A stretch of DNA of 64,000 nucleotides from a virus (lineage: Duplodnaviria; Heunggongvirae; Uroviricota; Caudoviricetes): the IMG/VR virus record IMGVR_UViG_3300033463_000034; one strand, written 5' to 3'. The position numbers were made by a program, and so were the translations under genes. This document shows positions 28,011 to 60,840 of this stretch, one piece after another. A model generated the notes under the pieces. The model made no database searches. It saw nothing but the letters and a program-made list of their open reading frames with translations, and had not been told where the DNA came from. The first letter of the stretch is position 1. Each line of letters opens with the position of its first letter.

Positions 28011-28500
28011 AATAGCAGGAATTAATGAAAATGATATGGTGAATGGAGAAGGAGTAAGTGTTAGTTTATTTCTCCAAGGATGTCCATTTCATTGTAAAGG
28101 ATGTCATAATCCAGAAACATGAGATCCTGAAGGCGGCAATGCCTGATTTGAAGAGAATTTAATTAAACATATTAAAGAACTAATTGCCGCAAATGGAATA
28201 CAAAGAAATTTAAGTATTTTAGGTGGCGAACCATTAGACACTCCTGATAAATTAAATTTTCTTGAAAAATTAATATTTTCAGTAAAAAATAAATATCCTA
28301 ATATAATAATTTGTTTATGAACAGGTTATAATTATGAATATTTACAAACAAGATGAGATATGAATTTTATATTAAATAATATAGATTATTTGATAGACGG
28401 TCCTTTTAAAATAAAAGAACGCGATATAACTTTAAAATGACGCGGCAGCCGCAATCAAAGAATAATAGATTTAAAAAAGGGACTAATTATTCAAAATTAG
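28003..28500 (+). CDS. nrdG: anaerobic RNR activating enzyme (radical SAM); 5 in-frame TGA
   Basis: CPFHCKGCHNPETW aligns with E. coli NrdG CPGCYNKSTW. ICLWTGY aligns with DIWVWTGY and LKWRGS with LIWRGS. The TGA codons fall on conserved Trp positions. Confidence 0.8.
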
Positions 28501-28512
28501 TCCTTTTATTTT
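28468..28512 (+). terminator. intrinsic terminator
   Basis: Stem gggactaat/attagtcc followed by ttttatttttt. Confidence 0.6.
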
Positions 28513-28541
28513 TTATATATATCAAAGAGAGTGTGATATCT

Positions 28542-29006
28542 ATGCGTACAGTAGTAAATGAAATGATAAAAGATTATGATTTAAAAAAATGAAATTGTGA
28601 TTTTATGGGCTATACTTTTGATACTATTAAAGATTTAAGTTTTCATCATTTAATCATTCCTAAAAGAGATAGTAAAAAAAATGGTATTGGTGAAGGTTAT
28701 GTATCTTGAAATGGTGCTATTTTAAATAGAGATACTTCACATCCTTATTTACATACAATAGAAAGAATTGATAGAAATTTATTTTTAAAAATTACACAAG
28801 AAATGGTAGAAGAAAATATAAATAAAAAATTGACAAAAGAAAATTTAGAAAATATTAGAGATATGCTATTATGATTTGAAAGTAAGTATGAAGATACTAT
28901 AACTTCACATGAAAAATTAATTGTAAAACCTGAATTTAAAACAAAAAGATTAGTTTTATCTATTGATGAAGAATGAAATTGAAAAAATAAAAAATATAAA
29001 TTATAA
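28542..29006 (+). CDS. putative HNH-family endonuclease (at least 6 in-frame TGA)
   Basis: SFHHLIIPKRDSKKNG....N.AILNRDTSHPYLH resembles an HNH core. Very dense in TGA. Confidence 0.35.
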
Positions 29007-36224: not shown

Positions 36225-36722
36225 ATGATATTATTATCATTAGATTTAAGTACAAAAAGTTCAGGTTGGGCAATATTTAAAGATGGTTTATTAATGGATT
36301 CTGGATGTATTACCTCTTCATCTACAGATTTGTTAAAAAGAATTAATGTAATGATAAATGGATTAAAAACAATAGTAGAACAATATCAACCTAATAGAAT
36401 AATTGCGGAAGAAGTAAGACCTGAAAATGGAATGCAAAATCTTAAAACTCATCGTGCTCTTATGTGATTACAAGGTGGCATTGCTTTAATGATTTATGCT
36501 TATAATAAAAATTTAGAATTAGAATTAATATATCCTAGTTCTTGAAGGGCGGCAATTGGTATTAAAACTGGGCGCGGAATTAAAAGAACTACATTAAAAG
36601 AAAAAGATATACAATTTGTAAAAGAAAATTATAATCTTGATGTTAATGATGATGAAGCTGATGCAATTTGTATAGGATATGCAAATTGTCATGATATAGA
36701 AACTGAAATTAATTGAGAATAA
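36225..36722 (+). CDS. ruvC: RuvC-like Holliday junction resolvase; 4 in-frame TGA
   Basis: RBS AGGAG upstream. LSLDLSTKSSGWAIF start, catalytic-type acidic residues EE and DDEADA, similar to phage RuvC. Confidence 0.65.
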
Positions 36723-36732
36723 AAAATTTTAC

Positions 36733-36775
36733 ACTTTATGATACTTTTATCATAAAGTTATTTTTTTTTATATTT
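36733..36775 (+). terminator. intrinsic terminator for the + strand module
   Basis: Stem cactttatgata/tatcataaagt followed by a T9 run. Confidence 0.65.
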
Positions 36776-36799
36776 CCTGCCAAATTTTAAGCATAAAAA

Positions 36800-36838
36800 A
36801 ATAGCACAGATATAAAAATCTGTGCTTTTTTATTTTTA
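36800..36838. terminator. bidirectional terminator between convergent modules
   Basis: Stem agcacagat/atctgtgct flanked by T-runs on both strands. The minus-strand gene stops at 36836. Confidence 0.6.
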
Positions 36839-39691: not shown

Positions 39692-42028
39692 CTATTCCTC
39701 CATAATAGGAACAGAAATTTTTTCATATTCATCTGTATTATTATTCCAAATATATAAATCATTTACTTCGTCAGTATATAATCTTCTTGAAACTCCAGTT
39801 AAACCATCTGTACTTGGATCAACATAATTCCAAATTGGAGCAGAAATTAAAATATATTGATTAGTATTTACATCTCAAATATATATTTCTTTTTTATAAA
39901 TATATAATACATTTTTTCTTCCTTCTTCAGGAAATTGACTATTATCATCAATAAATACAATTCTTTTGATAGGTGTTAATGTATTTGGCTCATCTCCGCC
40001 AGAACTAATAACAGTACTATTATCATAAACTGTTATTACTTTATATTTATCAAAATTATTTAAATTACATTCATCAATTTCATAAGCATTACTTGAAAAA
40101 CTCCATAGTCTACGACCTAAAGTTTGATTAGGTTGAAATTGAACATCCATAAGTTTTATTAAAAAATTTCCTTCTGTTGGACTACGAAATAATTTAACAT
40201 CATCAGCATATAAGAAATCTAAAATTTTATCTCTAAAGAATTTTTCTCAAATTACATCTCTTCAACGAGGAATTTCATTATCTTCATTATATTGATTATA
40301 TTGAGGTAAATAATCTCCAAAAACTTCTTGTTTAGAAGTAAATGTTCCACTTGCATCCATTGCAGATGAAATAAATCCCCCTAAAGGAAATTGAACATAA
40401 TTAATATATCCATTTCTTTTAATAAAAGGATATTTACTTCCTATTGTATCTGTACGAACCTCACTAATAGTTCTTTTAAATGAAGATAAAGATGGATTAA
40501 ATTCTAATTTTAATTGTCTATCTCCACTTGTTAAAAATATATGTTCAAAATTTAATAATAAAGGTTCTTCTATCATAACCATTTGAGTACGAGTTTGATT
40601 ACTACTCATTCCTTGTACTCCATATCTATACCATATACCATTCTCAACAGTATAATCATATCAATCTAAATTTATTATTCCAGCTTGATCAAAATTAGTA
40701 ATATACATATCATCTCATATTGTATAATTATTTTTATTACAAGCTCTTCTTATAATTAATTTACCAGTATATGTTTGAGAACTTGCTGATGTTTTCTCAA
40801 TATGAATTTTTACTCTTCCATTTTCTTCATCTTTTTCTGCGGCTATTGAAAAATCAAAACCTTCAGATGGAGCTGGAATGACATTAAAATCATAACTAAT
40901 TGTTTCTTGATATAAATTTTGAGTTGTATAAGTTATATCAAAATGATAAAATTCTCCAACAGTAAATCAATATTGAATATTATAATAAAAATTGTTTACA
41001 TCTGAAAATTGATTTGCAAAAATTTCTCCACTATCAGTTAATAAATTATTACTATTATCATAAGATTTTATTCTAAAACTTCTTAATGTTTCAGTTTCAT
41101 TTTCATCTGCAAATCTTAATTCACCAAGAATTAATGTATTAATAACTGAATCATAAATTTCAGTAGCAGACCCTGGATCAAAATCTTGAATAACTAAATC
41201 TGGAACTGAAATCCCTCTAATTAAACATACTGTTGACCATTCACTAAAATTATATAAATTTTTAGTTAATCATCCATCAATAGCTTGAACAGCATCTTTA
41301 TCACTTAAATCAATACCTGGATCATCTGCATTACTACTTGTAAATCTAATTTGTACTTTGTAATATTGATCTATGATAAAATTACAATCTTTTAAATCTT
41401 CAGGTCTAATTTCAATAAAATATTTATCATCACTAACTCTATGCTCATCTAATTGAATATTTTGTAACATTATTTCACATGGATATTTATCAGGATGTAA
41501 AACTGTTTTATTTGTTAATTGACTTCTGACAGTAATTTGTGCATTCTGAATTTGAGATAAAGAATTATAAGGAGATAAAGCAAAATATATTCTACAAATA
41601 AATTTATTATCAGTAGTATCAACAGTATTAAACTCTGCAGATTTAGAAATAACAACAGCTGAAGGTTCTTCTGCAAAGAAAATTTCTTCAGTTTTAGTTT
41701 TTTTAGAACTTCCTTGTAATAATTCTTCTAAATAACCTCGATATTCTATTTTTAATAATCTTTCTTGTTCAATTTCTTCTGGAGTAATACCACCTGCACG
41801 TAAAGCAGCTAATTTTGCTTCATATTCTTCTCAAAGTTCTTCTACACCATCTATTTCTGAATTTGTAATATATTCATCAACAGCATTCTCATATGCATCT
41901 TCTGCGGCATATGATGTTATTGTATATTGTTTAGTAATTTTAGTTACATTTTCCGAATTATCTTTAACTAAAAATGCTGGCATATATGTTTCTATTAAAG
42001 GTGGGTATAAATTAGTAGTTACTGCCAT
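39692..42028 (-). CDS. large structural protein (baseplate-like), 778 aa; many in-frame TGA
   Basis: RBS GGAG plus 8 nt spacer to ATG (complement 42026-42028). Frame verified through track ORFs 41831, 41270, 40262 and 39875. Its TAG stop overlaps the next RBS. Confidence 0.5.
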
Positions 42029-42132
42029 ATAAACATCTCCTTTTATCTCGCGGCGGCCGGTGTTAGAATATTCACCAAGACTCATCAAATGATGAACCTG
42101 ATTTCCGCATTATCTATTATTATCTTCTTCTT

Positions 42133-42676: not shown

Positions 42677-43783
42677 TTAATTATTATCTTTTTTATTATA
42701 ATAATCTTTAGCACATACTCCACATTCTATATTTTTATTTTTTATTTCTTCAGGAATTTTTGCTTGTATTGAATAAATATCATCTTCATTATATTCTAAT
42801 TCTGATAACATATCCATAAATTGGACTATATTTGGCTGTGCCATAAATATTTGTGCTGAAGTTGACATTTCTCCACATCAAATTTTAAAATTTTCATTAA
42901 AACTATTGATAAATTGTTCAGTATGATAATCTAAATTATATTGTTTTCAAGTATAATAATAAAATTTTTTAATATATTCTAAATTTTGTTCTTGAAACAT
43001 TTCAGAATTTGCACCTACATCACAATAAGTAAAATATAGAAATATAATTGCTCCAATAATTTCTTCTATAATAACTTCTTTTTTTATATTATGATTTCTA
43101 GCTCATTCAAAAGTTTCAATCATCCCATCTACAAATCCACATACACTTTGATCATATGTATATTGTCCATGATTAATTCTTGTAATAGAATTAGAACGAA
43201 CATGTCATAAATAAGTAAATGCATCCATAAAAGGAATTGTTTTATTTTCATTCATATAATAAATTAATATTTTTCTATTAAAACAAGTATCTTCATTAGC
43301 CCTTAAATCTGTAAAAGTAATCTTATTATCTATTAAAAATTGTCTACGATAAATTTTGCCAAAAACTCAGACAGTATCCCCATAATGAGGTATATAATTA
43401 TCATCATGTTCTTCTATAAAACCACTAAATAAGACATTTTCTTTAGATATTTCAATTTGTTTATAAAATTCTTTAAAAGTAAATCCTCCCATATAACTAT
43501 CATCTGCATCTGCAAACATTATATAGGGGCAAGAAGTATGCTCAATTCCATATCTTCTAGCATAACCTGGTCCATGATTTTCAGGAAGACGTCTAACATT
43601 TATATCTAATTTTTCTTTAAATAATTTTGCAATAGATTTATAATCTCCTTCAGGACAATGATCATCTACTATTGTTACTTTTACCAATTCAGAACCATCT
43701 TGCATAGCAATAGAACATAAAGTTTTAAAAATAGATTTATGAGCTTTATAAGCAGGAATAATTACATCAATTTGTTTTTCCAT
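42677..43783 (-). CDS. family 2 glycosyltransferase in the late module; several in-frame TGA
   Basis: VIIPAYKA, VTIVDD and FADADD. Track ORFs 43367 and 42677 are in the same frame. Confidence 0.6.
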
Positions 43784-46413: not shown

Positions 46414-49400
46414 TTAGCTTATTTTTTCTATTGTAAAATTACCTAATCATAATGTAGTAGTTATCCCATCTGCAGCTAAACCATAATTATAATTTATATA
46501 TGTTACATCACCAACAGCGGTAAAATTAAATGTTAATCTTTGAGTTTGAACATTTGATAAAGGAGATAAAAGAATTTCATTTATAACATTTGAATTAACT
46601 CTTTCATCACTATCAGTAGGTAATGATCTTAAAGCTTGACATGAAATACCAGTATATCCACTTAAAGGTGTATATCCATTTGGATTAAAATAATCAAATG
46701 TAACTCTATAAGTAGAACCACTTTCAGTTGCAAAAGGATAATATAATTCTTCGCAACCGCTTGATCCAACACATGATACTCTATTTAATTCAAGTTCATT
46801 ATCATAAGTAATATTTCATCTTGAACTATAATCTGATTCTTTTCAATATTTTCAATAGCAGAAATTATCATATTTGTCTATTTTAGCTTTTGTCCAATTA
46901 CCACTATTTTTAATATAACATTGTTTAGCATCTACTCAATTTCCATTAATTTTAATTTTTGGAATTCCTCTTAATCATTTTGATTGAGATTCAACAATAG
47001 ATCCAGCAGTAAAAGTACCTGTTCCAGCATTAGTAAAAAATGTATTTGAAACTAAATCATATAATCCAACTACATTATCACTATTTCTTTCCGCAGGCAC
47101 ATAATCTCTTAATAAATTACCTTCAAAATCATATAATTTTAAATAATATAATTTTAATCCTGGCGCAAGTTGAGTTGCGGAACCAACAGAGTTATTTGCA
47201 AATATATACATATTATAAGTTTCAGGTTCGTATTCACCTCTAGGAACATTATAATTATAATTAGTTCCATTAATTTTAATTTTTTCTTTAAGAATATTAA
47301 AATCAATTTCATAATCAGTATTAATTGTAAATGAAGCTATTTGTACACTTTTATTTCCTCATTGAGGACGTAATGTTGTTCCTGATTGGATTCTTATTCC
47401 ACATCCAGGTCAAATATCATCTATTACATATTCTGAAAAACATACTGAATTTCAACTATTTCCAATAGAAGTACAATTAAATTTAGTTATGATTTCTCCA
47501 ATATTAGATCCAGGAATTTCACTATTAATATATTGAGTTCCTGAATTTTGAATATAACTTAATTGAGTATATCCTGCTGGGAAATTTCTTTTAATTTTTA
47601 CTATTGGAGATTGAATAGCTGTTGTTGCATTACTTACTTTATAATCAAAAGTATCATAAGCATTTGCTCCTGTATGAGTTGCAATTACCCCATTTGCTAA
47701 ATAATAAGTAGTATTTTCTTTTAATCCATCATATACAAAAGCATCATCATCTTTATATTGTAATGCTTGGAATGATAAATCATTAAATACTCCTGTTGTA
47801 GATCCAGTACCAGCAGTATCATTTGTTAAATAAAAAGTTAAACGATAAAATGGAAAAATACTTTTATCTACATAAAAACATATTTCTTTGTTAGCAGTTG
47901 CATCTTTATATATAACTCTATTACTAGTTGGAGATCTATGAGCAGAAACAGATATTGCTCCTCAATAAGTAGAACCTCCAGTTATAGAAAAACTACCTGT
48001 TGATATTTTATAAAAAGTTTTATCTTCTAATAAATCACTAATATCTATATAAGTAGAACTTCAAGTTTGTCCTGAAGTATTTTTAACTACCGTTACTTTA
48101 GTTGCACTATTAACAGTTACGTCAGATTGAGGATCTCCATTTCTTAAATCTATTTCTGAATTTTTATTTGTTCAAATTCCATAATAATAATTTAAAGTTC
48201 TAGAAGGTGTTATAGATGCGGCAATGGAATCTTTTATACTATTTGGAGTAATACGATTAATAATAGGATCTGATACAGTTGGTAAAGGTAAATATGTAGA
48301 TTGTGTTCATGTAGTAGAAGTGTCACTCATAGAATGAGAATATGAACCATAACTTAAACTTCATGCTTTAACTTTAAAACTGTAATCTGTATCTGGAGAT
48401 AATCCAGTCCAAGTATAATAAGGGCTGTCATCAACAAATGCTACATAATCTCCTGTAGAATTTGTTCCAAAATAAATATTACTAAATGTTTGACTTTGTC
48501 CACTTACATCAATATCAAATCTTAAACATGCATATACCGCATTGCTAGGTGAAGTAAATGATGCAACACGTCTTTCTGAAGTTGCTGCATCTGAAAATGC
48601 TGCATGACTTAAATAATTTCAATTTGTGTCATATCAAAATACAAAAGCCTGAGTTTGAACATTTGCATTACTTGGAGTATAACCAAAATAATATAAAGTA
48701 TTAGGAGCAACAGGAAAACCATATTTTCCAACTATACCTTTTTGAACTTCTGTAACAGATGATGAAGTCATATGATAAGTATTTGTATAACTATCACTAT
48801 CTATTGAAGTAAAAGTTATACTAGTTCCGCTTATTGTAGCTGAAGCTCCACCTTTAACAGCTACTCCGCAATTTGCTCATCTTTGAAAATTAAATAAATT
48901 TCTATTATTTCTTTTTCAAGTTGTTCCACCATCAGAACTAAATAAATATTCTAAAGGAGTTCTATATCCAGTAGCAGTAACTCTTTGTCTAATAGAAGTT
49001 GTTGTTACATTATCAAAATAATGATCTGCAATAGTAACCTCACTTAATAAAGTTGAATAAGAAATTGTAGACGATGTAGATGTTCCAACTGAATTAGTAG
49101 CAGTAAAATATATTGTATAATCTTGATCTGTTACTAATCCTGTAATTTGTTTTGAAGTAGAAGTTCCTGCACTAACACTAGAATAATTTGAATCAGTTGG
49201 TCTCTTATAATAAATAGTATAATTTGTTATAGGAGTCCCTGAATCTGCAGTAGCACTAAAACTAACTGTAATAGTATTATAAGTATGTGCAGTTGCAGAA
49301 ATTGTTAAATTACTAGGTTTGTTTCCAGTTGTTTTTCCTTGTACTGAACTATAAACATATGGACTTTCATTTCCACTTGCAGAAGAAGTTGTTTTAGCTC

Positions 49401-49995
49401 TTAAATAAAAAGTATATGTAGTATTAGGAGTTAAACTACTAAATACATTACTACTTTGTCATGAACTATTATCTCTTGAATATTCAACAGTAGGTGTTGT
49501 AGTATTTAAATTTAAATATAATTGTGGATTTCCACTATCTGTTGTTTTGTTAAATATATAATTATTTGTTGAACCTCCTGTATTATGAATCTGTAATCAA
49601 AATGCTTGATTTCCTGATGGAACTATACCAACATTAAAATTGTCAGTAACATATTTATTTTGAGCATTATCTTTTCATTCCCAATAAGCTCCATTAGATG
49701 TATTTAAGAAAAAGTGAACATTTTGATTAATAACTGTAGAACCAAATCCCATATTAACTCAACAGTTATTATATCTACTATAACTATTTGATGAACCACG
49801 TCTTCCACGCATATTATTTATAAAAAATGAACCTGTAGTAGGTGCGGCAATAGAACTTGATAAAGTTATTTGAGTTTGTGCATTAGAAGCAGTAAAGGAA
49901 GTTACTGAAGGTGCATTTGGTACAAAAGATCAATAAGTCATTAATCTCATCCCAGTACTATTAGTACAAACAATATTAGTAAAAATTGCTGCCAT
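46414..49995 (-). CDS. large tail protein with fibronectin type III-like repeat and C-terminal lectin-like domain, about 1190 aa; very Trp(TGA)-rich
   Basis: RBS AGGAAG upstream of ATG (complement 49993-49995). Stop hand-indexed at 46414-46416. FN3-like segment TISATAHTYNTITVSFSA...YTIYF. Confidence 0.5.
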
Positions 49996-50013
49996 ATTAT
50001 AACTTCCTTTCTA

Positions 50014-51228
50014 TTAAATTAACACATATAAATCTCCGTCTGCTCCAATTGAAGCTGATGGAGTTGTAGATCCAGAATAAATTTCATGAGTGGCTCCTCC
50101 ACCACCAGATGAAGCAATTGATTGACCTAACCAAACAAAGTTAGTTCCATCATACATGTATATAACAGGCTTATTTGCTGTTCCTATAATATCTAAATTT
50201 GCAGTAGTAATTAAAGCTCCATTATATTTAATGCTTTTAGCTCCTTTACTATTAACATTTAAAGTTGGATTTGAAGCACTGTTTGTATTTGTAAAATTAA
50301 TTACTACAATAGCACCTGTTTGTAAATTTCAATTACTATTTTCAGATACTGTAACTACTTTTGCGGCAGTTGCTGCAGCAGTATCACAAGTTGCATAAGT
50401 AATATTTGTATAATCTATTTTTGCTTTATCAGTAGTAGACATTAAACCATGAGTTGATGTAGTTGCATCATTATAAGTTGTATCTGTAAATTTTGCTCCA
50501 CTAGGAACATTTTCAGCTACTGTTTTTCCATTAACTGTTGCGGCATCACCAGTAATACTTGCAGTTAATTTACCATCTGTTCTGAAATAATAATTTGTTC
50601 CATCATAATAAGTTAAATAAGAACCTGCAGGTAATGTATAGTTAGTTGAACTTGAAGCTGTACCATTAATATAAATTGGACAAGCTGTTTTACTATTAAC
50701 TTTAAATGTTAATGCAGATGCACTAGTATTTGAATTTTTAATAATTACATGTAAATATGAATTATTTAATAAAACATAATCAGTGCAAGATGCTGTTTTA
50801 GCAGCAGTATCTGCGGCAGTAGTACAATAAGCTGATGGAATTGTATTTGAATTATCATTTGCATCATATCCGCCACTTATCCAAACCCAATATGTTCCAT
50901 CATATTGATAAAATAATGTTCTATTAGCATAACCAGTAATCATTGAAGAATTTCCAGTATAAGGTATATTTGTACTATATACTATACTTATATCTCCAGT
51001 TTCATTAACATTAAGTGTACATGATGAAGCACTATTAGTATTTGTAAATTTAACACCTATAATATCTCCTGTTTGTAAATTCCAAGTAGGATCTGCAATA
51101 GTAACTACTTTAGCTGCGGTTGCCGCTGCAGTGCTACAAGTACCATAAGCAAGTTTTGGAGAACTATTATAAATATTTCCAATAAACTTTGAATCACCAG
51201 TAACTATTAAATCTTTTAATTGTGCCAT
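50014..51228 (-). CDS. tail fibre protein with internal repeats (TC[SD]TAAATAAKVVT x2), about 404 aa
   Basis: RBS GGAGGAAAAAGG upstream. Translation MAQLKDLIVTGDSKF. Frame continues past TGA at 50329 to TAA at 50014. Confidence 0.55.
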
Positions 51229-51245
51229 GTCCTTTTTCCTCCTTC

Positions 51246-53723
51246 TTATATTTCAATAAAATTGTTTGAAACAATTTTATTACCTTCATAAATTTGTGCA
51301 TTTGGTATCGAATACCCTATTTTTAATTGAGTTTTTATATCATTACTTGTAACATTAATGTTATTTTCATCAAGATACAATTTAATACTATTAAGTTGAT
51401 TAATTAATTCTTTATCAGTAATAGTTTCATAAATTGGATTTTCTAATACATAATATACTGTTGTGTTATGTGTTAATAATCAATCTTTAAAACCTGTGAC
51501 ATCTATACTAGATAATCTATTTCTTTTTATTTCAAAATATATTGCATCATTAGCAGTACCATATCCTTCATTGCCATCTTGTGAACTTTGGCTATAACTA
51601 AAATAATTACAATATTTATTATTACCATATGGCATAATAAAATTTGATAAATTAAAAGATATTGTTGTACTTCCATCACCTGTATTTCTTTGTGTATAAT
51701 TTTCACTACCATCTAAAACAACCTTACCAATATTTCTCTTAATAAATAAATCTTTTTTATAAGGTTCATATGATGTGGCTATACTTCCTTTTTCAATTTG
51801 AATATATGTTGAAAAATTAATAACATTTTGGAATTGCAAATAATAACAATTATTTGGTGTTGTGAATGTATATTTATTTAATGAATTAATTATATTATCT
51901 GAACGACTTATCCATACTTTTTCTTTTGTATAATAATATATTCTTGATACTGCACTTGTTAAAACACCACTTATTGTATAAGTAGTATTTGGTTCTACTA
52001 ATGTATAAGATGTTGTATAATTACCACCTATATTTGCTGTTTCATTTCCACTATCATCTTTTGCATAATCATTTTTTATAGTTTGATTATCTTCATCAAA
52101 TAAATTTTTTCCATTATTGCTAATTAATTCATCTTGATAACTACCAATACCATATAATTTTATTGGTGTTTTGTATGGTACATAATCTGTTGCGGTAGAA
52201 CCTTTTTCTAACATTGGATTGTTAACTTCGCAAGTATCTCCAATACCAACAGCTTCACTTGAACTAACATATATACCGATTCTTATTTTTGAATTTGTAT
52301 TTCCGCTATTAAATGTATATGAACCATTACTATCTATTGTTCCTTGTGCAATATAAGAACTTCACATGGTTCCTACATATATTGTTAAATTATTTTTTGT
52401 AACATCTTTTATTTTGTAGTCTCCCATACTAAATGTATAATTTGTATTAGGTTCAGGAATAAAATCTCAAGTTATAGGAAAACTATTTTCATTAGCAGTA
52501 TTAGATGTAGCAATAACTTTATTTTCACTACCTACAACTGTATATTGAGTACTATATGATGAACTAGCAGTTAAATTATTAATTAAATTTTTTCCTAAAT
52601 TTAATTTAAAATTTTGTCCTTTATAGGATTCATAAGTCATATCTTCATCATCTATTGTTAATACCATATCAGTAAAATCTATATAATCATTTTGATTTAT
52701 TGTACCTGCTTCTGTATTTACATATAAATTTAAATACAAATATGTTTGATTTCCACTTAATTCTGGTACTATAAAACTTACAATACCACCACTTGTGCTG
52801 CTAGTACTTTTTGAAGTTCTATTACTTCCATCTGCATTACATAATCCTATAATATATCTTCCTCTATTAGAAGAACTTGCAATAAATTTTGCTTTAAATC
52901 TAATTGTTTTCCCAACATAATTTGATAAATCCATTATTGTATAAATTAAAAATTGAGTTGTTGCTGATGCTGTACTAGAAGTATATGTTAATCTTTTTCC
53001 TGTATCTAATGTAGTATCAGTTATTACAGAATATTGACCTTGTGTTTTTCTTACAATTGATTTATCAAAATAATTTTTTCCACATATATTAATATTTTGT
53101 TCTCCTGTAACAATTTTTATATCTTGTGGATAATCTGGATTTGGACTTGCAATTCCACCAACATAAGGTTCATAATCAGTTGCTGGTGAACCTAATTCCA
53201 ATTGAGGTTTTATTTGTACATTTTCTAATTTTGTTCCATTTGATATTCTTATTGTAAATCTTACATTTTGAGTAGTATCATTAGTAAATGTTGTATTATT
53301 ATTTAGTAAAGTAAATCTTGTTAAACTACCGGATAAATTTGTTGTTGTATCCTGTAATCTTAAACTTATATAATCATTTGTATTAGTAGATGAAAAATTA
53401 TTATTTGCACTTAATGAATAAGTTCCTTGTTTTAATTCAAATTGATTAGTTCTTACAACAAAATCTGTTGTACAAGTTCCATTTAATGTTATAGAACCAT
53501 CTCTATTATTTGTAATAGTTATTCCATTTATTTCTTGAGTTGTTAATGTTGATAAGTTTAATAAATTCTTTCCAGTGTATTGTTGTTGTTCACATTTACC
53601 TTTCAATGCTATTAAAGAAGGATTTTCTGATGTATTATTTTTCATATTGAAATTAAAACCTTCTGCAGTTTTAAATTCTTGTATATTTTCATTTTCTCAA
53701 ATACCATTTTTATAAATACTCAT
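51246..53723 (-). CDS. receptor-binding-like protein built from repeated beta-sandwich modules (EKGSxATDYEPY repeated at least 3 times), about 825 aa
   Basis: RBS GAGGAGGAA upstream of ATG (complement 53721-53723). Track ORFs 52467 and 51480 are in frame. Stop at 51246. Confidence 0.5.
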
Positions 53724-53725
53724 AA

Positions 53726-54970
53726 TTATTCCTCCTCTATAAATTCATATGAATAAGAATTTCCTTTATTATCTATAATAGCAAAAGCCTCATATAATTG
53801 TTTTACATCATTTGCAGAAAGTGCTGTGACATAAAAACGTAAATCACTCATATATCCTTGAAATTGTCCAGTATTTTTTCTTCCGCCAATATTTAAAACT
53901 TCTTTACTATAAACAGTTCCATTTGTTGAAATTTGTTGATTTTGAATTCCATTTATATATAAAGTTAAAGTTTGTGCCGTACTATTATGAACTAAAGTAA
54001 GATATTGTCAAACATTATCAGTTGCATTTCATGTTCCTACATGTGCAGTTCCTGAAGAATCATATATAAAAAATCTATTTTTTTCAAGAGCAACTGTAAT
54101 AGCATTTGCATTATCTCCTGCATAATAACAAGTTCCATCTGTATGATAAAATCATCCACTAATAGTAAAATCTTTTGAATTAGCTAATACATTTCCGATA
54201 GAAACATTTAATAATTGAGATCCTGTAAAAATTGCACTTTTATCATATCTAGGACTTTCATTATTTAAAGTTAAAGTTCCTACACTAGTTGTATTATAAC
54301 CATTTCCACTTACATCAGTATTAATAAAATCTAAATTATTTAATTTATAATGACATATTAAACCTTTACTTAATTCTTTTATCTCTTTTGTAGATAAAGC
54401 CTCATCATAAAGTCTAAAATCATTTAATAAACCTTTAAATTTATACCCATTTGCAATTCATCCTATATACATTTGAGTTTCTGGTATAGAATAAATTTCA
54501 GAACAAGCTACAGTTTTTTCTAATATACCATCAATATATAAACGAAGTTTTTCTCCATTAAAAGTTCCACATATATGATGTCATTTACCATCTTTAACAC
54601 TTGATGTTGAATAAGCTACAGTTCTATGACCTTCTGTATCAGTTCCATCTTGTGTAGTTCAAAATCTAATACGACCATCATCATAAATATCAAAATGATA
54701 TTGATTATGATAACCTCTTCCACAAAGTCTTCTTCAAGTTTGCGTAGCTGGAACATCTTCATCTTTTATTCAAATACTCATAGTAAAACTTGTTGTATAA
54801 TTTCCAACACTTGAAGTAGGAGTAGTTAAATAACTATCTCCATCAAAACTATAACACTTTCCTATTTTACCTGTATCACTAACAGTGGCATTAATATTTG
54901 CAAACCTAAGATTACTTAAACCTTTATTTTTTAAATCGCCATTAAGAGGCAGCCAAACACGTAAAGCCAT
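53726..54970 (-). CDS. tandem concanavalin-A/LamG-like lectin-domain protein
   Basis: RBS GGAGGTAAT upstream. Two LamG-type ends (FRLYDEALSTKEI and LRFYVTALSANDV). Its stop overlaps the next RBS. Confidence 0.5.
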
Positions 54971-54983
54971 ATTTGATTACCTC

Positions 54984-56393
54984 CTAAGCAAAAATAAATT
55001 CTATACATTTATCTGTTGAATTATATTGCATTGTTGCAGCAGTTCCACCAACTTGCACTGATTTAGTAGTAAGAACCCCATCAGTAGCATATATTTCATT
55101 ATCTGAATAAGTTTGTGGATTAGCAGCTTGACTAGTTGCACCAATTAAATAAATTTTACTTGATGTATCTGTTGAGCCAGCAGTATTTTTAGTATTTGTA
55201 TAACAAGCAGTTGGAATAGTTCCACTTAATTTAGTTGCATCTAAAGTAGAAGCAGCAGTAAGTGGAGTAATTGTTTCACTACCTAAAGTAATAGTGCCAT
55301 TTTCTAATTTAGCATCTGTAATTCCATAACCACTTATTGTAGTTGGATTAGTTCCCCCAGTAACATGTCCTGTTTCATTAACTGTTACAGAAGTATAAGT
55401 TCCAGCTGTAACTCCTGAATTAGCGTGTGATATTGTTCTAGTACCACTTGTTGTAATTGCACTTGTACTATTTACTGCAATAGGTGAAGTAGCTTTTATA
55501 ACAATACTTGTTACAGTTCCACTTGGTTCATCTCCAGAAGGAATTAATTCCCAAGTATTTGCATTAGAAGTTTTTGTTAAACATATAAAAGTATCTCCAA
55601 TCTTTGCATTTTGAGATGCATATACTCCAGCAGTAATAACTTTATAAGTATCACCAACATCTGCAGAACCATCAACAGGTAAATCAGTAATAGTTCCATC
55701 TGTTCCTAAACTACCTTTAAATACCATTGGTTCTGGTAAATTATCAATAGCAGTTTTAACAAATGAAGTTGTTGCTATTTGATCTGTATTAGTACCAGCA
55801 TCCGCAGTTGGTGCACTTGGAATACCATTTACAATACTAATAGCTTCTTTATAATTATTACTTACTGTATTACCTAAAGATAATCTAGCATTTGCATCAT
55901 CTGTAGTTGTAAGAGCTGTAACGCCAGTATCTGCAGTAGTAGAAGCGTAATTTAATTTAAAACCATCTGAAGATCCAGTTACCTCTATAATATTTGTTGA
56001 AGCAACAGTCCCACTACCAGCTAAAGTATTTTTTAATACACTAGCTTCAGTAGCATAAGGTACTGTAATTGATTGAGCGCTTCCAGAACTAGGTGTTAAT
56101 TTAATTTGTTTATTTGTTGTATCTGCCTCTAATAAATAAGTAGTATTATTATCAGGCATTGTAATTTCATGAGATGTTCCACTTGGATCTGTAAAAATTA
56201 ATTTATGAGTATCAGTTCCATCTTGAATTAAATTATAAGAACTAATTTCAATACGATTTGAATTAGTTTGATCTAAATATAATCTTTTTGTATCTGTTAC
56301 AAAAATAAGTTGCCCTGCAGTAATAGGTAAAGAAGAAAGATTAGTATTAGTTGTTTGATAAAATTTTACTAATGTTCTGTTTGTTTCAGCCAT
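54984..56393 (-). CDS. tail fibre protein
   Basis: RBS GGAGGAAAT upstream. N-terminal anchor motif GQLIFVTDTKRLYLD, then Thr/Ser-rich shaft. Confidence 0.55.
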   Translation of the reverse strand: MAETNRTLVKFYQTTNTNLSSLPITAGQLIFVTDTKRLYLDQTNSNRIEISSYNLIQDGTDTHKLIFTDPSGTSHEITMPDNNTTYLLEADTTNKQIKLTPSSGSAQSITVPYATEASVLKNTLAGSGTVASTNIIEVTGSSDGFKLNYASTTADTGVTALTTTDDANARLSLGNTVSNNYKEAISIVNGIPSAPTADAGTNTDQIATTSFVKTAIDNLPEPMVFKGSLGTDGTITDLPVDGSADVGDTYKVITAGVYASQNAKIGDTFICLTKTSNANTWELIPSGDEPSGTVTSIVIKATSPIAVNSTSAITTSGTRTISHANSGVTAGTYTSVTVNETGHVTGGTNPTTISGYGITDAKLENGTITLGSETITPLTAASTLDATKLSGTIPTACYTNTKNTAGSTDTSSKIYLIGATSQAANPQTYSDNEIYATDGVLTTKSVQVGGTAATMQYNSTDKCIEFIFA

Positions 56394-56409
56394 TTTATTT
56401 CCTCCTTCA

Positions 56410-56450
56410 TATTATTGCGGAAGATCTCGATTTAATATTCTTTAAATCGG
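56410..56450. other. GC-containing imperfect stem-loop between fibre genes
   Basis: gatctcgatttaa / ttaaatcgggatc with one mismatch, flanked by gcggaag and agcgcc. Confidence 0.3.
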
Positions 56451-56471
56451 GATCCAGCGCCTTTATTTACA

Positions 56472-57824
56472 TTAAGCTGAATAAGTTTCCCAAGCTAGGA
56501 TACTTTCAGCGTAAGCTTTTGCTCCATAGATTGTATTTGCAGTAGCAGTGTCTGAAGCAGTTCCTATTGCTGTACTTAATGCAGCAGCAGCACTACCACT
56601 TGCATCATAAGCACTACTTGCAGTATAAGCAGCTGATCCTAAACCATGGACACTAACTTCTGCAGTTGTTCCACCAGTATTAACACTAATTGTACCATTA
56701 TTAGATCCTTCAGCTACGCTTCTAACTGCGTTATCAGCTAAAGTTCCTTGAGCAGCAGTTGCATAATTTGAAGCTAAACTATCTGCATATTTTTTAGCAC
56801 CATAAATAGTATTAGCAGTTGCAGCATCACTACTTGAACCAATAACTTCTGATTTAACTGTTGCAGCAGCTCCGCTAGCATCATAAGCTGATGAAGCAGT
56901 ATAAGCAGCACTACCTAAACCATAAACTGCAACATCTGTACCATCAACTGCAATTGTACCATTAGTAGCACCAGTTGTAATATCTGCAGCTTGTAATGCG
57001 CTATCAGCAGCATTAATTGAGCTTTGTAATGAACTAGATAATTTTGCTTTTGTTACATTAGCATCTAAAATTTTTGCAGTTGTAACAGCATCATCAGCTA
57101 ATTCTGTAGCAGTAACTGATCCAGCTACGATTGAACCACTAATTACATTAGCATTACTAATAGCTAATTGAATTTGACTAGCATTTTGTTCTGCAGTATA
57201 AATATCTACTAAATCTTTAGCAGCAATATATAATACATCACTTGAGCTATTAGCGATTTGTAATTTAATATATTTACCAGCATCTGCAGCAGTAGCAGTT
57301 CCACCTTGACCTTTGATTTTTTCAGTTACATCTGTTTGTCCATCATATAATTTTCCATCTTCAGAGTTATAAGTGATATCTACAACAGATCCACTTTCAA
57401 CTACCATATCTTTTGGAATATCAATATTTACATTTAATCCTGTAGCAGATTGAACTACATTATATCTTTTTGAATATGGATCCCCAGTTTGTCCTGAAGT
57501 TTCAGTAATTGCTACTGTATAATTAGTTTGACTAGGTACATTAACGTATAATCCTTTTTCTCCTGCTCCAGTTTGTAAACTTAAACTATTTCCTGATTTT
57601 TCAGAAATTTGAACTTTAATTTTTTTATTATCTGAAACTACAATTGAATCATCTTTACCTTCAACAGCAGTTAAGAAACTTGATAAATCTTGATCTGTTA
57701 AATGTCTTTCTCCTAGATATAATTCATTAGTATCAGTTAATAAATAAAAATAATCTGCATTAACTGTTCCTGCAGTTTTTAATGCAGCATATTCACTAGC
57801 TAAAATTTTAATAAATTTAATCAT
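56472..57824 (-). CDS. tail fibre protein with tandem repeats (YGLGSAAYTASSAYDASG and TATANTIYGAK[KA]YA, each x2)
   Basis: RBS GAAAGGAAG upstream. N-terminal YFYLLTDTNELYLG motif. Confidence 0.55.
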   Translation of the reverse strand: MIKFIKILASEYAALKTAGTVNADYFYLLTDTNELYLGERHLTDQDLSSFLTAVEGKDDSIVVSDNKKIKVQISEKSGNSLSLQTGAGEKGLYVNVPSQTNYTVAITETSGQTGDPYSKRYNVVQSATGLNVNIDIPKDMVVESGSVVDITYNSEDGKLYDGQTDVTEKIKGQGGTATAADAGKYIKLQIANSSSDVLYIAAKDLVDIYTAEQNASQIQLAISNANVISGSIVAGSVTATELADDAVTTAKILDANVTKAKLSSSLQSSINAADSALQAADITTGATNGTIAVDGTDVAVYGLGSAAYTASSAYDASGAAATVKSEVIGSSSDAATANTIYGAKKYADSLASNYATAAQGTLADNAVRSVAEGSNNGTISVNTGGTTAEVSVHGLGSAAYTASSAYDASGSAAAALSTAIGTASDTATANTIYGAKAYAESILAWETYSA

Positions 57825-57848
57825 ATTTTTTCTTCCTTTCTTTTATTA

Positions 57849-58286
57849 TTAAATTGATTGATTAGAATAATTTTCCCAATCATTTCCGCCTAATCGATAA
57901 TAACTATCCATTTCTCCATTTCAACGATACATTTTATCATTTTTTACATAGATAACATCTTCAATTCCTATATAAGGTAAATCACCATCTATAAAAATTA
58001 TATTAGGCTCTTCTTGTCCTGTCATTTGAATCCATTCACCGAAATAACTCCATAAAGTATTAGTACTCATTACATAGTAATATCCTTCAAAAGGAGATTC
58101 AATAGCTAATCTAGCTTCTTCATCGGCTACATTTAAAATTGATTGATAAGGTGTTCTCTCATCATTAACATCTAAATATATTGCTCTAGTATCTGAACAG
58201 AAAATTAATTGTCCTGCTTTAACTTCTATATATGGAAGTTTATTAGATGTAGTAGCAATAAAATGCATACTTGGTTTAACAGCCAT
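57849..58286 (-). CDS. short fibre/anchor protein sharing the N-terminal motif (GQLIFCSDTRAIYLD)
   Basis: Track ORF 57921 continues across one TGA. Ends in three consecutive TAA codons at 57843-57851. Confidence 0.45.
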
Positions 58287-58302: not shown

Positions 58303-58653
58303 TTAAAAAATATCTAATACTAAAGAACCATCAATACTTTCGATTACATCTTGAATGATTTCTTCTTTATCCTCGCCAGTATAGTAATCTACTCCTTTTT
58401 GAGGAATGTACATAGGAACTTCTCCTGAATCAATAGTATCACCATTTGACATAGTACATATTAAATGATTATCTTCATTAATATAAACGTCAATTATAGA
58501 AATACCATCTTCTGGAGCTGGGAAATCAATCTCTAAAATTTCTCCGCTTTTTGTTTCAATATAAAGTGTAGTCTCTTCAACCCACATTCTTTCAATTCCT
58601 GAAGCGGCTGCACCTGCTATTTTTTTACAAAGAGCATATGTAACTATATCCAT
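58303..58653 (-). CDS. hypothetical protein
   Basis: 116 aa acidic protein. Confidence 0.4.
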   Translation of the reverse strand: MDIVTYALCKKIAGAAASGIERMWVEETTLYIETKSGEILEIDFPAPEDGISIIDVYINEDNHLICTMSNGDTIDSGEVPMYIPQKGVDYYTGEDKEEIIQDVIESIDGSLVLDIF

Positions 58654-58927: not shown

Positions 58928-58962
58928 CATAAAAAAAACGCGGAAATAACTCCGCAATCTTT
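58928..58962. terminator. bidirectional terminator
   Basis: Stem gcgga/tccgc (with flanking pairs), followed by T-runs on both strands. Confidence 0.45.
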
Positions 58963-59418: not shown

Positions 59419-60840
59419 CTATAATTTTTTTAAGGCATCAGCTTGATAAAATCCAGTAGTACCAGTATTATTACCAACTTGATATGGATAAGGTTTACCA
59501 TTCCAAATTTTTAATATTTGTCTTGTCCAGCCAATACCATAAGCAGTATTACAATCTCCATAACAAGAACCATTACCAGTGCCTATAATTTGAACTTTAT
59601 CTCCAACTTTTAATTCTTCTGGTTTTGGTGGTACAGGTGTTGGAGTTGGTTCTGGATCTACATAAGGACTAATAGAATCTTCAGCCATCCAACCTAAATC
59701 TCCAGTAGTATTATATGGATAAGGATGTCCCCATGCAATTCTAGTAATATTAGTTACTTTATTATGCGCAGTTTTACCAGGATATTTTCCATCTGCGGTT
59801 CCATATAATTGACCATTAATAATAACCTTATCCCCTATATTATATTTAGGAGTAGGTTGTGGTTGTGCAGGATAAATAGTTGTCCATTCATCACTTGAAG
59901 CTATCCATTGTTCATCTGCAATTCTATACCATATATAACCTGATGCTTCCGCAGTTTCATAATAATTATAATATCCAATATGAGCAAATCCTAAAACTTC
60001 TTTATCAGTTCCAGCACCTTTTCTAACTCTTAAATTAGATATTTTTACTTCTATTTGATCTTTATAAATATCTCTATCTACATTTGGAGTAATTGGTGAT
60101 TCTCCACCATCAACCCATTTTTGTACGTCATCTGGTAAATAAATAAAACATCTAAATGTATAAGCAGATCCTTGTCCCCATCTACCATTTTTATTAGATC
60201 TTGTTGTATTTCTAAATGTATAAGAATTATATCCTGATTCAGAAACATAAATCGAACCATCTGCATTAATTCTTTCTACAACAGCAACATGTCCAGCCCC
60301 ATCTTTACTAGCTAAAGAGCCTTTTTGCCATACTATAATAGCACCAACTTTTGGAGTTGATCCAGTTTTTAACCCAGCTGGGATAGCTCTTTCAGGGAAG
60401 TTTTCTGCATTACAATTTAATGTTTTATAAGTACATCCAGTTGTATTTCTTGCTTCGTTAATAATTTCATTAAAACGACCTGAAGCATATCCAACACAGT
60501 TTGCTAATACATTAGCTTCTGGATCTTTTGGTTTACCTAAAATACAAGTATTCCATCCACCTGTTCCAGCCTTTATAAAGTTTTTATTATTTTTTGGTTT
60601 AGTAGTTCTCATTGAAAACCCACTAGCTCCAATACCTTCTTGCTCTTCTTCATTAACATTTTCTATTGAAATAATATCTTCCATATCATCTTGTTCTTCT
60701 TGAGGATCTGTATTAAATAAATATTGTACATCCTCATCATCAATATCATCTCTTAAGAAGGCTTTAGCTACCATATGTTGTACTTCAATAGGAGCCATTT
60801 CAACTCTAGCTATTCTTTCTTCTGAAGTTAATTGTGCCAT
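59419..60840 (-). CDS. peptidoglycan hydrolase: CHAP amidase/peptidase domain plus two SH3-like wall-binding domains, with an acidic N-terminal extension
   Basis: CHAP Cys/His region GGWNTCILG...NCVGYASG...AGHVAVVE. SH3_5-like GDKVIINGQLYGTADGK and GDKVQIIGTGNG. Confidence 0.65.
   Translation of the reverse strand: MAQLTSEERIARVEMAPIEVQHMVAKAFLRDDIDDEDVQYLFNTDPQEEQDDMEDIISIENVNEEEQEGIGASGFSMRTTKPKNNKNFIKAGTGGWNTCILGKPKDPEANVLANCVGYASGRFNEIINEARNTTGCTYKTLNCNAENFPERAIPAGLKTGSTPKVGAIIVWQKGSLASKDGAGHVAVVERINADGSIYVSESGYNSYTFRNTTRSNKNGRWGQGSAYTFRCFIYLPDDVQKWVDGGESPITPNVDRDIYKDQIEVKISNLRVRKGAGTDKEVLGFAHIGYYNYYETAEASGYIWYRIADEQWIASSDEWTTIYPAQPQPTPKYNIGDKVIINGQLYGTADGKYPGKTAHNKVTNITRIAWGHPYPYNTTGDLGWMAEDSISPYVDPEPTPTPVPPKPEELKVGDKVQIIGTGNGSCYGDCNTAYGIGWTRQILKIWNGKPYPYQVGNNTGTTGFYQADALKKL

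What the first reader, a model, noticed from the sequence alone, without database searches (positions are those of the whole stretch)
46414..58286. Unusually large arsenal of receptor-binding proteins, three of which share an N-terminal anchor motif
Seven consecutive genes encode fibre or lectin-type proteins. Three share the N-terminal motif G-Q-L-I-F-x-x-D-T-x-x-x-Y-L-D (54984, 56472, 57849). One has a tandem LamG lectin. One is built from at least three EKGSxATDYEPY-initiated modules. One has duplicated AATAAKVVT repeats. One is a 1190-aa FN3 plus lectin protein extremely rich in TGA-Trp. The shared anchor domain suggests interchangeable fibres docking on one adaptor, which would give a multi-receptor or broad host range.
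Basis: seen in the sequence. Interest (0 to 1): 0.6.

Follow-up and report, generated by a model that had tools for sequence, protein, structure and literature searches.

The report
Modular tail-fibre locus of recoded phage
A large gut phage that reads TGA as tryptophan carries a block of seven fibre and sugar-binding-type genes, three of which start with the same small trimer-forming "node"; this is a real but fairly ordinary example of how phages shuffle host-recognition modules.

Summary
The seven genes are real only if TGA is read as Trp. That reading is confirmed by conserved LamG tryptophans and by TGG/TGA paralogous positions. The exact motif GQLIFxxDTxxxYLD occurs in two proteins (469 aa and 145 aa). 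The 450-aa protein has a degenerate version, but profile comparison shows it is homologous (hhalign 95.5%, E 1.5e-8).

The motif is the core of a ~45-residue unit. A confident AlphaFold model of the 145-aa family best matches collagen XV/XVIII trimerization domains and N-terminal domains of phage fibres. The 145-aa protein is three such units in tandem. The unit heads 765 protein clusters of very different lengths and also occurs internally in some giant fibres.

Five related phage lineages (six contigs) keep the same order: small node protein, 450-type fibre, then one or two further node-headed fibres, followed by variable node-less genes. Shafts and tips are shuffled between phages. The three node classes are old paralogues (53-61% identity between genomes, 21-32% within one), which argues against free interchange on a single adaptor.

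The LamG tandem, the three modules of the 825-aa protein, the repeats of the 404-aa protein (three, not two) and the FN3 domain are confirmed. The "lectin" part of the 1193-aa protein is not. The phage fits the ~127-kb TGA-recoded "Agate" lineage. Verdict: a new member of a known kind.

The parts
57849..58286 (-). 145-aa protein made of three tandem trimerization nodes (res 20-50, 64-88, 103-132) with no distal domain. It is always the first gene of the trio in relatives.
58137..58286 (-). N-terminal node (anchor) of the 145-aa protein; exact motif GQLIFCSDTRAIYLD at 58170-58214.
56472..57824 (-). 450-aa fibre with a diverged node at the N-terminus (57675-57824; YFYLLTDTNELYLG at 57711-57755) and a duplicated C-terminal unit (res ~284-352 and 366-450).
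   Evidence: BLASTP to the 469-aa protein E=0.002. hhalign Prob 95.5%. PF24243 Phage_tail_C passes its gathering score on the L001 orthologue's N-terminus (27.2 vs 23.7 bits). PHROG tail fibre 1.8e-4. C-terminal duplication z=23. Full-length orthologues in L026-L031.
54984..56393 (-). 469-aa fibre with an N-terminal node (56244-56393; GQLIFVTDTKRLYLD at 56271-56315) followed by a widely shared shaft and tip.
   Evidence: More than 2,158 homologues, mostly with partial coverage; some are named tail fibre or carry PF03406. Mosaic relatives P0003 and P0020. Exact copy P0001 on contigs up to 127,686 bp.
53726..54970 (-). 414-aa protein with two tandem LamG/ConA-like domains and no node. The N-terminus MALRVWLPLNG is conserved in relatives with different C-terminal parts.
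   Evidence: Laminin_G_3 1e-43, 2 stretches. 8 of 9 Trp codons are TGA, at conserved LamG Trp positions. L001 592-aa, L010 789-aa and L026 428-aa counterparts.
51246..53723 (-). 825-aa protein with three homologous GKNL...E[KL]GSxATxYxPY modules (res 51-187, 377-517, 538-655), one unrelated module (215-376) and a distinct C-terminal domain.
   Evidence: Module z-scores 5.1-8.2. PHROG 6782 tail fibre 1.1e-10. The same modules are carried on a node anchor in P0234 and in the L029 921-aa fibre.
50014..51228 (-). 404-aa protein with three CxTAAxTAAK-initiated ~90-aa repeats (res 29-120, 134-222, 279-370). The N-terminus MAQLKDL is shared with other fibres.
   Evidence: Repeat z-scores 5.9-30. Its C-terminal two-thirds forms the tip of the node-headed fibre P0003. 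Its N-terminus heads P0020, the L010 2280-aa protein and the L026 384-aa protein.
46414..49995 (-). 1193-aa protein: FN3 (res 226-312), weaker FN3-like signals, an uncharacterised ~195-aa domain (res ~804-998, 47002-47586) and an unknown C-terminus. 23 TGA-Trp codons.
   Evidence: fn3 45.3 bits. Only about 5 true homologues. The 804-998 domain recurs twice in P0290 and as stand-alone genes in L026. It has no Pfam, PHROG or PDB sequence match.
58303..58653 (-). 116-aa conserved protein, the first gene of the putative fibre transcription unit. Function unknown.
   Evidence: 53-68% identical orthologues sit immediately upstream of the small node protein in L001 and L026. A terminator-like hairpin at 58939-58956 separates it from the holin.
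39851..39934 (-). Additional node copy at the C-terminus (res 718-745) of the 797-aa tail/structural protein (gene 39692-42085).
   Evidence: Node HMM score 13.3 against a shuffled-proteome maximum of 3.4. This sequence was not in the training set.

Best explanation
This is the host-adhesion gene block of a ~127-kb virulent-type gut phage that reads TGA as Trp in its late genes. It is built from exchangeable modules.

Three proteins begin with a ~45-residue unit: a short helix plus a beta-hairpin/meander whose core is G-Q-L-I-F-x-x-D-T-x-x-x-Y-L-D. This unit most likely nucleates homotrimer formation and, when N-terminal, fixes the fibre to the virion. The first protein (145 aa) is nothing but three such nodes and probably forms a short trimeric stub or connector. 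The next two (450 and 469 aa) carry fibre shafts and tips.

The three node classes are ancient paralogues, each tied to its own gene slot, so each probably has its own position or partner in the virion rather than competing for one site.

Four downstream node-less proteins (tandem LamG; three beta-sandwich-type modules; three tip repeats; FN3 plus unknown domains) have their own conserved N-terminal (and partly C-terminal) peptides. They are the likely carbohydrate-recognition or accessory adhesins.

Host range evolves by recombination that moves shafts, sugar-binding modules and tips between anchors and between phages.

Shown: gene models, the genetic code, homology of the nodes, their fold class, class-specific conservation, mosaicism, and the LamG and FN3 domains. 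Inferred: trimerization, virion attachment, receptor binding and multi-receptor use.
For: - Code and genes.
- Node homology.
- Node at residues 1-47 of 765 cluster representatives (74 at E<=1e-10) with lengths from 42 to over 2,100 aa.
- Conserved order and class-specific identity.
- Mosaic chimeras P0003, P0020, P0131, P0234.
- LamG and fn3. PHROG tail-fibre hits. Internal module repeats.
- Single transcription unit: 2-78 bp gaps and no internal - strand terminator-like site.
- Lineage: ~127-kb contigs; recoding pattern as in the 'Agate' phages of bioRxiv 10.1101/2021.08.26.457843.
Against: - There is no direct evidence that any of the seven proteins is in the virion or binds a receptor.
- The GQLIF-type node does not reach the gathering threshold of any Pfam family.
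- Head-fibre proteins (P68, crAss001) are among the structural matches, so some of these proteins could decorate the head or neck rather than the tail.
- The sugar-binding role of the 825-, 404- and 1193-aa proteins rests on weak or no domain evidence.
- No docking partner was identified.
Confidence: 0.7

Rival explanations
1. First reader's model. The three node-headed proteins are alternative, interchangeable fibres that compete for or share one docking site on a common adaptor, giving each virion (or the population) a mix of specificities.
For: The N-terminal unit is homologous in three co-encoded proteins. Relatives L027 and L029 even have four node-headed genes, and the two fibre-type anchors there are 35-44% identical. 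Anchors recombine with different bodies.
Against: The classes are conserved by slot across genomes (53-61%) and divergent within a genome (21-32%), with no sign of homogenisation. All relatives keep the full set in a fixed order, so these are components, not alternatives. One of the three (145 aa) has no distal domain at all. No adaptor was found.
Confidence: 0.15
2. Serial or branched assembly. The 145-aa three-node trimer is a hub or connector whose successive nodes provide docking platforms for the 450- and 469-type fibres (and perhaps the node-less lectin proteins). This would be functionally analogous to the T4gp10-like branching domains of Klebsiella/CBA120-type phages but built from a different fold.
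For: The small protein is always encoded first and is strongly conserved (invariant G25, F29, D32, W85, P104, G107, etc.). It has three nodes, which happens to match the three node-headed genes in the window, and it lacks any tip. Low pTM suggests a beads-on-a-string arrangement. Branching RBP systems are well documented (PMC6872550).
Against: No interaction evidence. P0131 shows the small protein can itself carry a fibre tip, which suggests it is simply a minimal fibre. Relatives with four node-headed genes still have a three-node small protein.
Confidence: 0.1
3. Some or all of the node-headed proteins are head, neck or collar fibres (decoration or primary reversible adhesion) rather than tail receptor-binding proteins.
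Against: PHROG hits for the 450-, 825- and 414-aa proteins are to tail-fibre families. Homologues are named tail fibre. Tail-type proteins lie on both sides (927 aa upstream; 797/950 aa downstream), and the 797-aa protein shares the node.
Confidence: 0.1

Closest known systems
Anchor / conserved-peptide / branched multi-RBP systems of Klebsiella and related phages (KP32, Menlow, PhiK64-1, G7C, K1-5; Latka et al. 2019, PMC6872550)
   Same: Several RBP genes sit in one cluster. Short N-terminal attachment modules are conserved within a phage group. Central and distal parts are highly variable and horizontally exchanged. Standardized units are re-used to build a complex apparatus.
   Different: No T4gp10-like branching domain or depolymerase beta-helix was detected here. 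The N-terminal unit has a different fold class (collagen-XV-like node). The host is probably a Gram-positive, low-GC gut bacterium. Distal domains are LamG, FN3 or unknown rather than depolymerases.
Collagen XV/XVIII (multiplexin) trimerization domain; Pfam PF20010 Collagen_trimer
   Different: Sequence scores are far below the gathering threshold (12-13 vs 23.8 bits). No collagen Gly-X-Y repeats are adjacent in these proteins. Here the unit is N-terminal or tandem.
N-terminal domains of phage fibres Mtd (BPP-1, 1yu0), HylP1 (2c3f) and P68 head fibre (6q3g); Pfam PF18454 Mtd_N, PF24243 Phage_tail_C
   Different: Mtd_N gives only E=0.041 on one sequence. The window's own 450-aa copy misses PF24243 because of a 4-residue insertion. 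No Pfam model covers the GQLIF type.
[quoted passage not shown]
   Same: Genome size (exact proteins on 127.7-kb contigs). TGA read as Trp. Recoding concentrated in structural genes, with replication genes in standard code. [quoted passage not shown] A GC-skew switch. Ruminant gut MAG sources (sheep and goat record titles).
   Different: Membership was not verified by terminase phylogeny or ANI. That paper does not mention tail fibres at all.

Membership tests
Pfam PF13385 Laminin_G_3 (414-aa protein) | Score above the gathering threshold (27.6 bits) | tested here: met
   149.5 bits, E 1e-43, two stretches. TGA codons fall on the conserved LamG Trp positions.
Pfam PF00041 fn3 (1193-aa protein) | Score above the gathering threshold (25 bits) | tested here: met
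   45.3 bits at residues 226-312. Two further FN3-like signals are below threshold.
Lectin / carbohydrate-binding domain in the 1193-aa protein | Recognisable CBM, lectin or ConA-like domain by sequence or fold | tested here: not met
   No Pfam, PHROG or PDB sequence hit for residues 1-225, 317-572, 573-803, 804-1039 or 1040-1193. The match to P0290 lies outside its LamG region.
Pfam PF24243 Phage_tail_C (450-type N-terminus) | Score above the gathering threshold (23.7 bits) | tested here: inconclusive
   The L001 orthologue scores 27.2 bits (pass) and the L004 orthologue 15.1 bits (fail). The window copy, which has a 4-residue insertion, gives no hit.
Pfam PF20010 Collagen_trimer / collagen XV-XVIII trimerization domain (GQLIF-type node) | Sequence score above the gathering threshold (23.8 bits) | tested here: not met
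   12.0-13.1 bits, E 0.1-0.2.
Pfam PF20010 Collagen_trimer / collagen XV-XVIII trimerization domain (GQLIF-type node) | Same fold | tested here: met
Pfam PF20010 Collagen_trimer / collagen XV-XVIII trimerization domain (GQLIF-type node) | Forms homotrimers | not testable with these tools
   Only monomer prediction is available.
Pfam PF18454 Mtd_N | Score above the gathering threshold | tested here: not met
Anchor-branched multi-RBP systems (Latka et al. 2019) | Cluster of several RBP genes with N-termini conserved within the phage group and variable distal parts | tested here: met
Anchor-branched multi-RBP systems (Latka et al. 2019) | T4gp10-like branching domain in the anchored RBP | tested here: inconclusive
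   No such hit in the Pfam or PHROG scans of all seven proteins. No HHpred-type search against T4 gp10 was possible.
Anchor-branched multi-RBP systems (Latka et al. 2019) | Physical attachment of RBPs to the virion or to each other via the N-terminus | not testable with these tools
   Needs cryo-EM or biochemistry.
'Agate' TGA-recoded phage lineage | ~127-kb genome with TGA read as Trp, concentrated in structural/late genes | tested here: met
   Exact proteins on contigs of 127,686 bp. 133 in-frame TGA against 118 TGG across the table-4 gene set, with the + strand replication-side block almost all TGG. TGA = Trp.
'Agate' TGA-recoded phage lineage | Placement in the Agate clade by terminase phylogeny or ANI | not tested
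   Reference Agate genomes are not available in the tools, and no terminase was identified in the window.
'Agate' TGA-recoded phage lineage | TGA suppressor tRNA | tested here: not met
   ARAGORN finds no tRNA in the 64-kb window. The other half of the genome was not examined.

The most novel reading that the evidence does not exclude
The ~140-aa three-node protein is a dedicated branching hub. As a homotrimer it would present three stacked collagen-XV-like nodes, each recruiting a different fibre class through node-node recognition. This would be a new structural solution to multi-RBP branching (analogous to, but unrelated to, T4gp10-like domains) in phages of Gram-positive gut bacteria, and it would define a portable 'plug' for engineering fibres in uncultured recoded phages.
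Probability: 0.1. Interest if true: 0.6.

Novelty: new member of a known kind. Interest (0 to 1): 0.35.

Why it matters
Host-recognition loci of uncultured, stop-codon-recoded gut phages are essentially undescribed, and standard-code annotation shatters them. This locus shows that such phages use the familiar logic of a constant N-terminal module with shuffled shafts and tips. It also defines three things that annotation pipelines currently miss. First, a recurrent ~45-residue trimerization/attachment node, present in 765 clusters, for which no Pfam model covers the GQLIF type. Second, a conserved ~140-aa "three-node" protein family. Third, an uncharacterised ~195-aa distal domain. These are useful markers for finding and comparing receptor-binding genes in metagenomic phages, and possibly for modular fibre engineering. 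The principle itself, however, is not new.

Tried and rejected
1. Nucleotide search of the locus against INPHARED found nothing. tblastn of the 450-aa fibre gave only a 13%-coverage hit in Gordonia phage NHagos. There is no cultured relative.
2. PDB sequence searches with the 469-, 450- and 145-aa proteins and with the anchor profile gave nothing significant. The best were 9eg4 orf16 (E 0.038) and hemopexin-like noise.
3. The first structure prediction of the 145-aa family, with 11 close sequences, gave pLDDT 54.7 and was unusable. It was rescued with a 25-sequence alignment.
4. My own idea that the three nodes of the 145-aa protein fold onto each other as a single-chain pseudo-trimer is not supported. 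pTM is 0.42, the node matches domains that trimerize between chains, and P0131 carries a fibre tip. It is not excluded, but I dropped it as the preferred reading.
5. TGA = Gly (code 25) is rejected. TGA sits at conserved Trp positions and alternates with TGG in paralogous repeats.
6. Using TGA density in the 469- and 450-aa genes (0 TGA) as a sign of recent import is rejected. Each has only one Trp.
7. The lectin label for the 1193-aa protein via P0290's LamG domain is rejected. The aligned region is a different, unannotated domain.
8. Host assignment from the CHAP lysin: three of five genome hits are phages or prophages binned in MAGs, including implausible Methanobrevibacter bins. Only L110 looks bacterial, so this is a weak hint of a low-GC Bacilli host.
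9. A self-BLAST for repeats failed technically and was replaced by Smith-Waterman with shuffles.
10. The promoter scan was uninformative: 94 sites found against 111 expected.

Full report
**1. What is at the coordinates**

The window has about 26% GC. Under the standard bacterial code, the region 46.2-50.3 kb and several neighbouring stretches contain only short ORFs. Reading TGA as a sense codon raises coverage by ORFs of at least 100 aa from 12,484 to 20,011 codons. It also produces seven back-to-back - strand genes at exactly the finding's coordinates:

| Coordinates | Length |
|---|---|
| 57849-58286 | 145 aa |
| 56472-57824 | 450 aa |
| 54984-56393 | 469 aa |
| 53726-54970 | 414 aa |
| 51246-53723 | 825 aa |
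| 50014-51228 | 404 aa |
| 46414-49995 | 1193 aa |

Gene calls on independent assemblies give the same 414/825/404/1193-aa products.

TGA encodes Trp. In the 414-aa protein, 8 of 9 Trp codons are TGA and lie on the canonical LamG tryptophans. In the 404-aa protein, one repeat has TGG where its paralogous repeat has TGA. The 1193-aa protein has 23 TGA and 3 TGG.

Gaps between the seven genes are 2-78 bp. The only - strand terminator-like hairpin nearby (58939-58956) follows the holin gene, so the seven genes plus a conserved 116-aa gene (58303-58653) look like one transcription unit.

Reading in the direction of transcription:
- Upstream: a 927-aa tail-type protein, a CHAP lysin and a holin.
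- Downstream: small conserved genes, a family-2 glycosyltransferase and two large structural proteins of 797 and 950 aa.

**2. The shared N-terminal motif**

The literal pattern GQLIF..DT...YLD is present in two proteins, the 469-aa and 145-aa ones. The 450-aa protein has YFYLLTDTNELYLG at the same distance from its N-terminus.

- BLASTP: 469 vs 145 gives E = 3e-7 (48% over 31 residues); 469 vs 450 gives E = 0.002.
- Using orthologues from related phages, a profile of 450-type N-termini aligns to a profile of GQLIF-type N-termini with 95.5% probability, E = 1.5e-8.
- A protein from the exhaustive search (P0262) carries six internal repeats of the form TQAEYDAL...YFCSDTxxIYLNG. These combine the characteristic halves of both variants.

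The refutation criterion stated in the finding is therefore not met. The three N-termini are homologous, as two close copies and one diverged copy.

**3. What the unit is**

A 50-position profile of the unit was searched against 1.84 billion cluster representatives. It finds 765 proteins at E <= 1e-3 (74 at <= 1e-10). Almost all matches are at residues 1-47, in proteins ranging from about 140 aa to more than 1,200 aa. So this is a true recurrent N-terminal module with variable cargo.

It is not only N-terminal:
- The 145-aa protein contains three tandem copies, at residues 20-50, 64-88 and 103-132.
- P0132 has 11 internal copies and P0262 has six.
- An HMM of the unit also detects the C-terminus of the window's 797-aa protein. 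The score is 13.3 against a shuffled maximum of 3.4.

Pfam gives only weak hits for the GQLIF type: Collagen_trimer at E about 0.1 and Mtd_N at 0.041. The 450-type N-terminus of the L001 orthologue passes the gathering score of PF24243, 'Phage tail tip domain'.

A first AlphaFold model of the 145-aa family was poor (pLDDT 54.7). With 25 diverged family members it became confident (pLDDT 85.4, and 89-95 over the first node). The pTM was low (0.42), meaning three well-defined units with an undefined mutual arrangement.

Foldseek against viral predicted structures returns a 140-aa siphovirus protein of the same family, then collagen-like, tail-collar, C1q-domain and tail-fibre proteins.

The simplest reading is a small trimerization node that also serves as the virion-proximal end when it is N-terminal.

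**4. Comparative evidence**

The exact 469-aa and 1193-aa proteins lie on contigs of 127,686 bp. Six IMG/VR contigs representing five distinct lineages (L004 and L005 give identical ORF tables) share the locus organisation: L001/L028, L004/L030, L005/L031, L026, L027 and L029. The order is:

1. a conserved small node protein (141-157 aa);
2. a 450-type fibre;
3. one node-headed fibre of very variable length (469, 546, 692, 921, 958 or 1470 aa);
4. in L027 and L029, a second one (499 and 533 aa);
5. a variable set of node-less genes;
6. conserved small genes.

Node sequences group by class rather than by genome. Identity is 53-61% for the same class between genomes. It is 21-32% between classes within a genome, and 40% for the two fibre-type anchors.

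Distal parts are visibly shuffled:
- P0003 joins a 469-type N-terminus and shaft to the C-terminal two-thirds of the 404-aa protein.
- P0020 puts the 404-type N-terminus (MAQLKDL...) on a 469-type shaft and tip.
- P0131 fuses a small node protein to a 450-type tip.
- P0234 and the L029 921-aa fibre carry 825-type modules directly on a node.
- L026 encodes the unknown domain of the 1193-aa protein as separate 229- and 240-aa genes.

The node-less proteins have their own conserved N-termini (MALRVWLPLNG..., MS[IV]YKNGIW..., MAQLKDL...). Some also share a C-terminal tail (...NFIEI).

**5. The other sub-claims**

- The tandem LamG is solid.
- The 825-aa protein has three homologous modules (z = 5-8). 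Each begins at GKNL and ends with the E[KL]GSxATxYxPY motif. It also has one unrelated module and a separate C-terminal domain, and it hits a PHROG tail-fibre family at 1e-10.
- The 404-aa protein has three repeats, not two.
- The 450-aa protein has a duplicated C-terminal unit (z = 23).
- The 1193-aa protein has one clear FN3 domain and two weak ones. Its remaining roughly 800 residues have no recognisable family. The ~195-aa domain at residues 804-998 recurs in P0290 and L026 but is absent from Pfam, PHROGs and PDB sequences. The 'lectin' label for this protein is therefore unverified.

**6. Which phage**

There is no cultured relative. [quoted passage not shown]
- genome size;
- TGA read as Trp;
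- recoding concentrated in structural genes while the + strand block at 1-27 kb is almost all TGG;
- a GC-skew sign change at about 36-37 kb.

That paper does not discuss tail fibres. Membership was not verified phylogenetically.

A CHAP lysin with repeat domains implies a walled host. A bacterial membrane protein in a 24%-GC rabbit 'Bacilli' MAG shares the lysin's C-terminal repeat, which is a weak pointer to low-GC gut Bacilli.

**7. Interpretation**

The locus is best explained as a modular adhesion apparatus. Three node-headed trimeric components (a stub and two fibres) are each tied to their own slot and probably their own position in the virion. Four node-less proteins with LamG, FN3 and repeat-module domains likely recognise surface carbohydrates. 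The whole set evolves by exchange of shafts, modules and tips.

This is the same logic as the anchor, conserved-peptide and branching systems catalogued for Klebsiella and related phages (PMC6872550). It uses a different attachment fold, and no T4gp10-like branching domain was detected.

Homology and cassette swapping are real. Class-specific conservation, the fixed co-occurrence of all classes, and the tandem and internal use of the node argue against a single shared docking site. A hub role for the three-node protein, and a head or neck location for some components, remain possible.

**8. Verdict**

The finding is a real feature, with corrections in detail, and an example of a well-known principle in an under-described phage lineage. 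The modestly new elements are the node family (no Pfam model for the GQLIF type), the conserved three-node small protein and the uncharacterised 195-aa domain.

- Novelty: new member of a known kind.
- Interest: 0.35.

Noticed in passing
window 1-64000; e.g. 59419-60840 vs 61104-63887: TGA-Trp use is strongly patchy. The + strand block at 1-27 kb is almost all TGG, and the CHAP lysin has 11 TGG and 0 TGA. The 927-aa tail protein just upstream of the lysis cassette has 10 TGA and 4 TGG, and the 950-aa protein has 15 TGA and 0 TGG. No tRNA gene, and so no suppressor, lies in the window. The pattern matches the published 'Agate' TGA-recoded phages.
   Followed up: partly
window 47002-47586 (-), residues ~804-998 of the 1193-aa protein; also L026:14455-15873: A ~195-aa domain (YTQLxYIxSTGTQYI ... 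VGLYDxxxxxFYTNxGTGxF). It recurs twice in P0290 and as stand-alone 229- and 240-aa genes in a related phage. It has no Pfam, PHROG or PDB sequence match, so it is an undescribed distal fibre domain.
   Followed up: partly
window 51246-51300 and 53726-53780 (C-termini of the 825- and 414-aa proteins); L026 240- and 229-aa genes: The node-less proteins share a C-terminal tail (...IYEGNKIVSNNFIEI, ...IYKDDNRIEAANFIEI, ...IYENKIMTNDFNEI, ...SYSYEFIEEE). Some also share an N-terminal MS[IV]YKNGIW. This could be a docking or strand-exchange peptide.
   Followed up: no
window 39692-42085 (-), residues 718-745 and 775-789: The 797-aa structural protein ends with one clear and one weak copy of the same trimerization-node motif. 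It is a candidate partner or a further fibre-like component outside the finding's coordinates. The 950-aa neighbour has weaker look-alikes.
   Followed up: partly
window 42677-43783 (-): A family-2 glycosyltransferase (PF00535, 3e-19) with 5 TGA-Trp codons is embedded among the virion and late genes. It might modify virion proteins or the host surface.
   Followed up: no
window ~36700-36850: The + strand and - strand gene blocks converge here (ends at 36722 and 36836), and the GC skew changes sign at the same place. This is consistent with a replication terminus or module boundary, as reported for Agate phages.
   Followed up: no
L110:2476-3189 (rabbit gut 'Bacilli' MAG, 24% GC): A bacterial membrane protein shares 44% identity with the last 62 residues of the phage CHAP lysin (a wall-binding repeat). 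This is a weak host hint. Other genome hits, including Methanobrevibacter MAG contigs, look like mis-binned phage contigs.
   Followed up: partly
P0219 (382 aa): A protein with an N-terminal part that looks like a eukaryotic starch-binding/phosphatase protein, joined to a perfect phage fibre anchor at residues 293-339. It is probably a chimeric assembly or gene call.
   Followed up: no
window 1557-1769 (+), 27988-29006 (+): Small ORFs in the otherwise TGG-only + strand block carry 5 TGA and 0 TGG each. They may be late-regulated or mobile genes. The Agate paper reports a recoded intron homing endonuclease inserted in an early gene.
   Followed up: no
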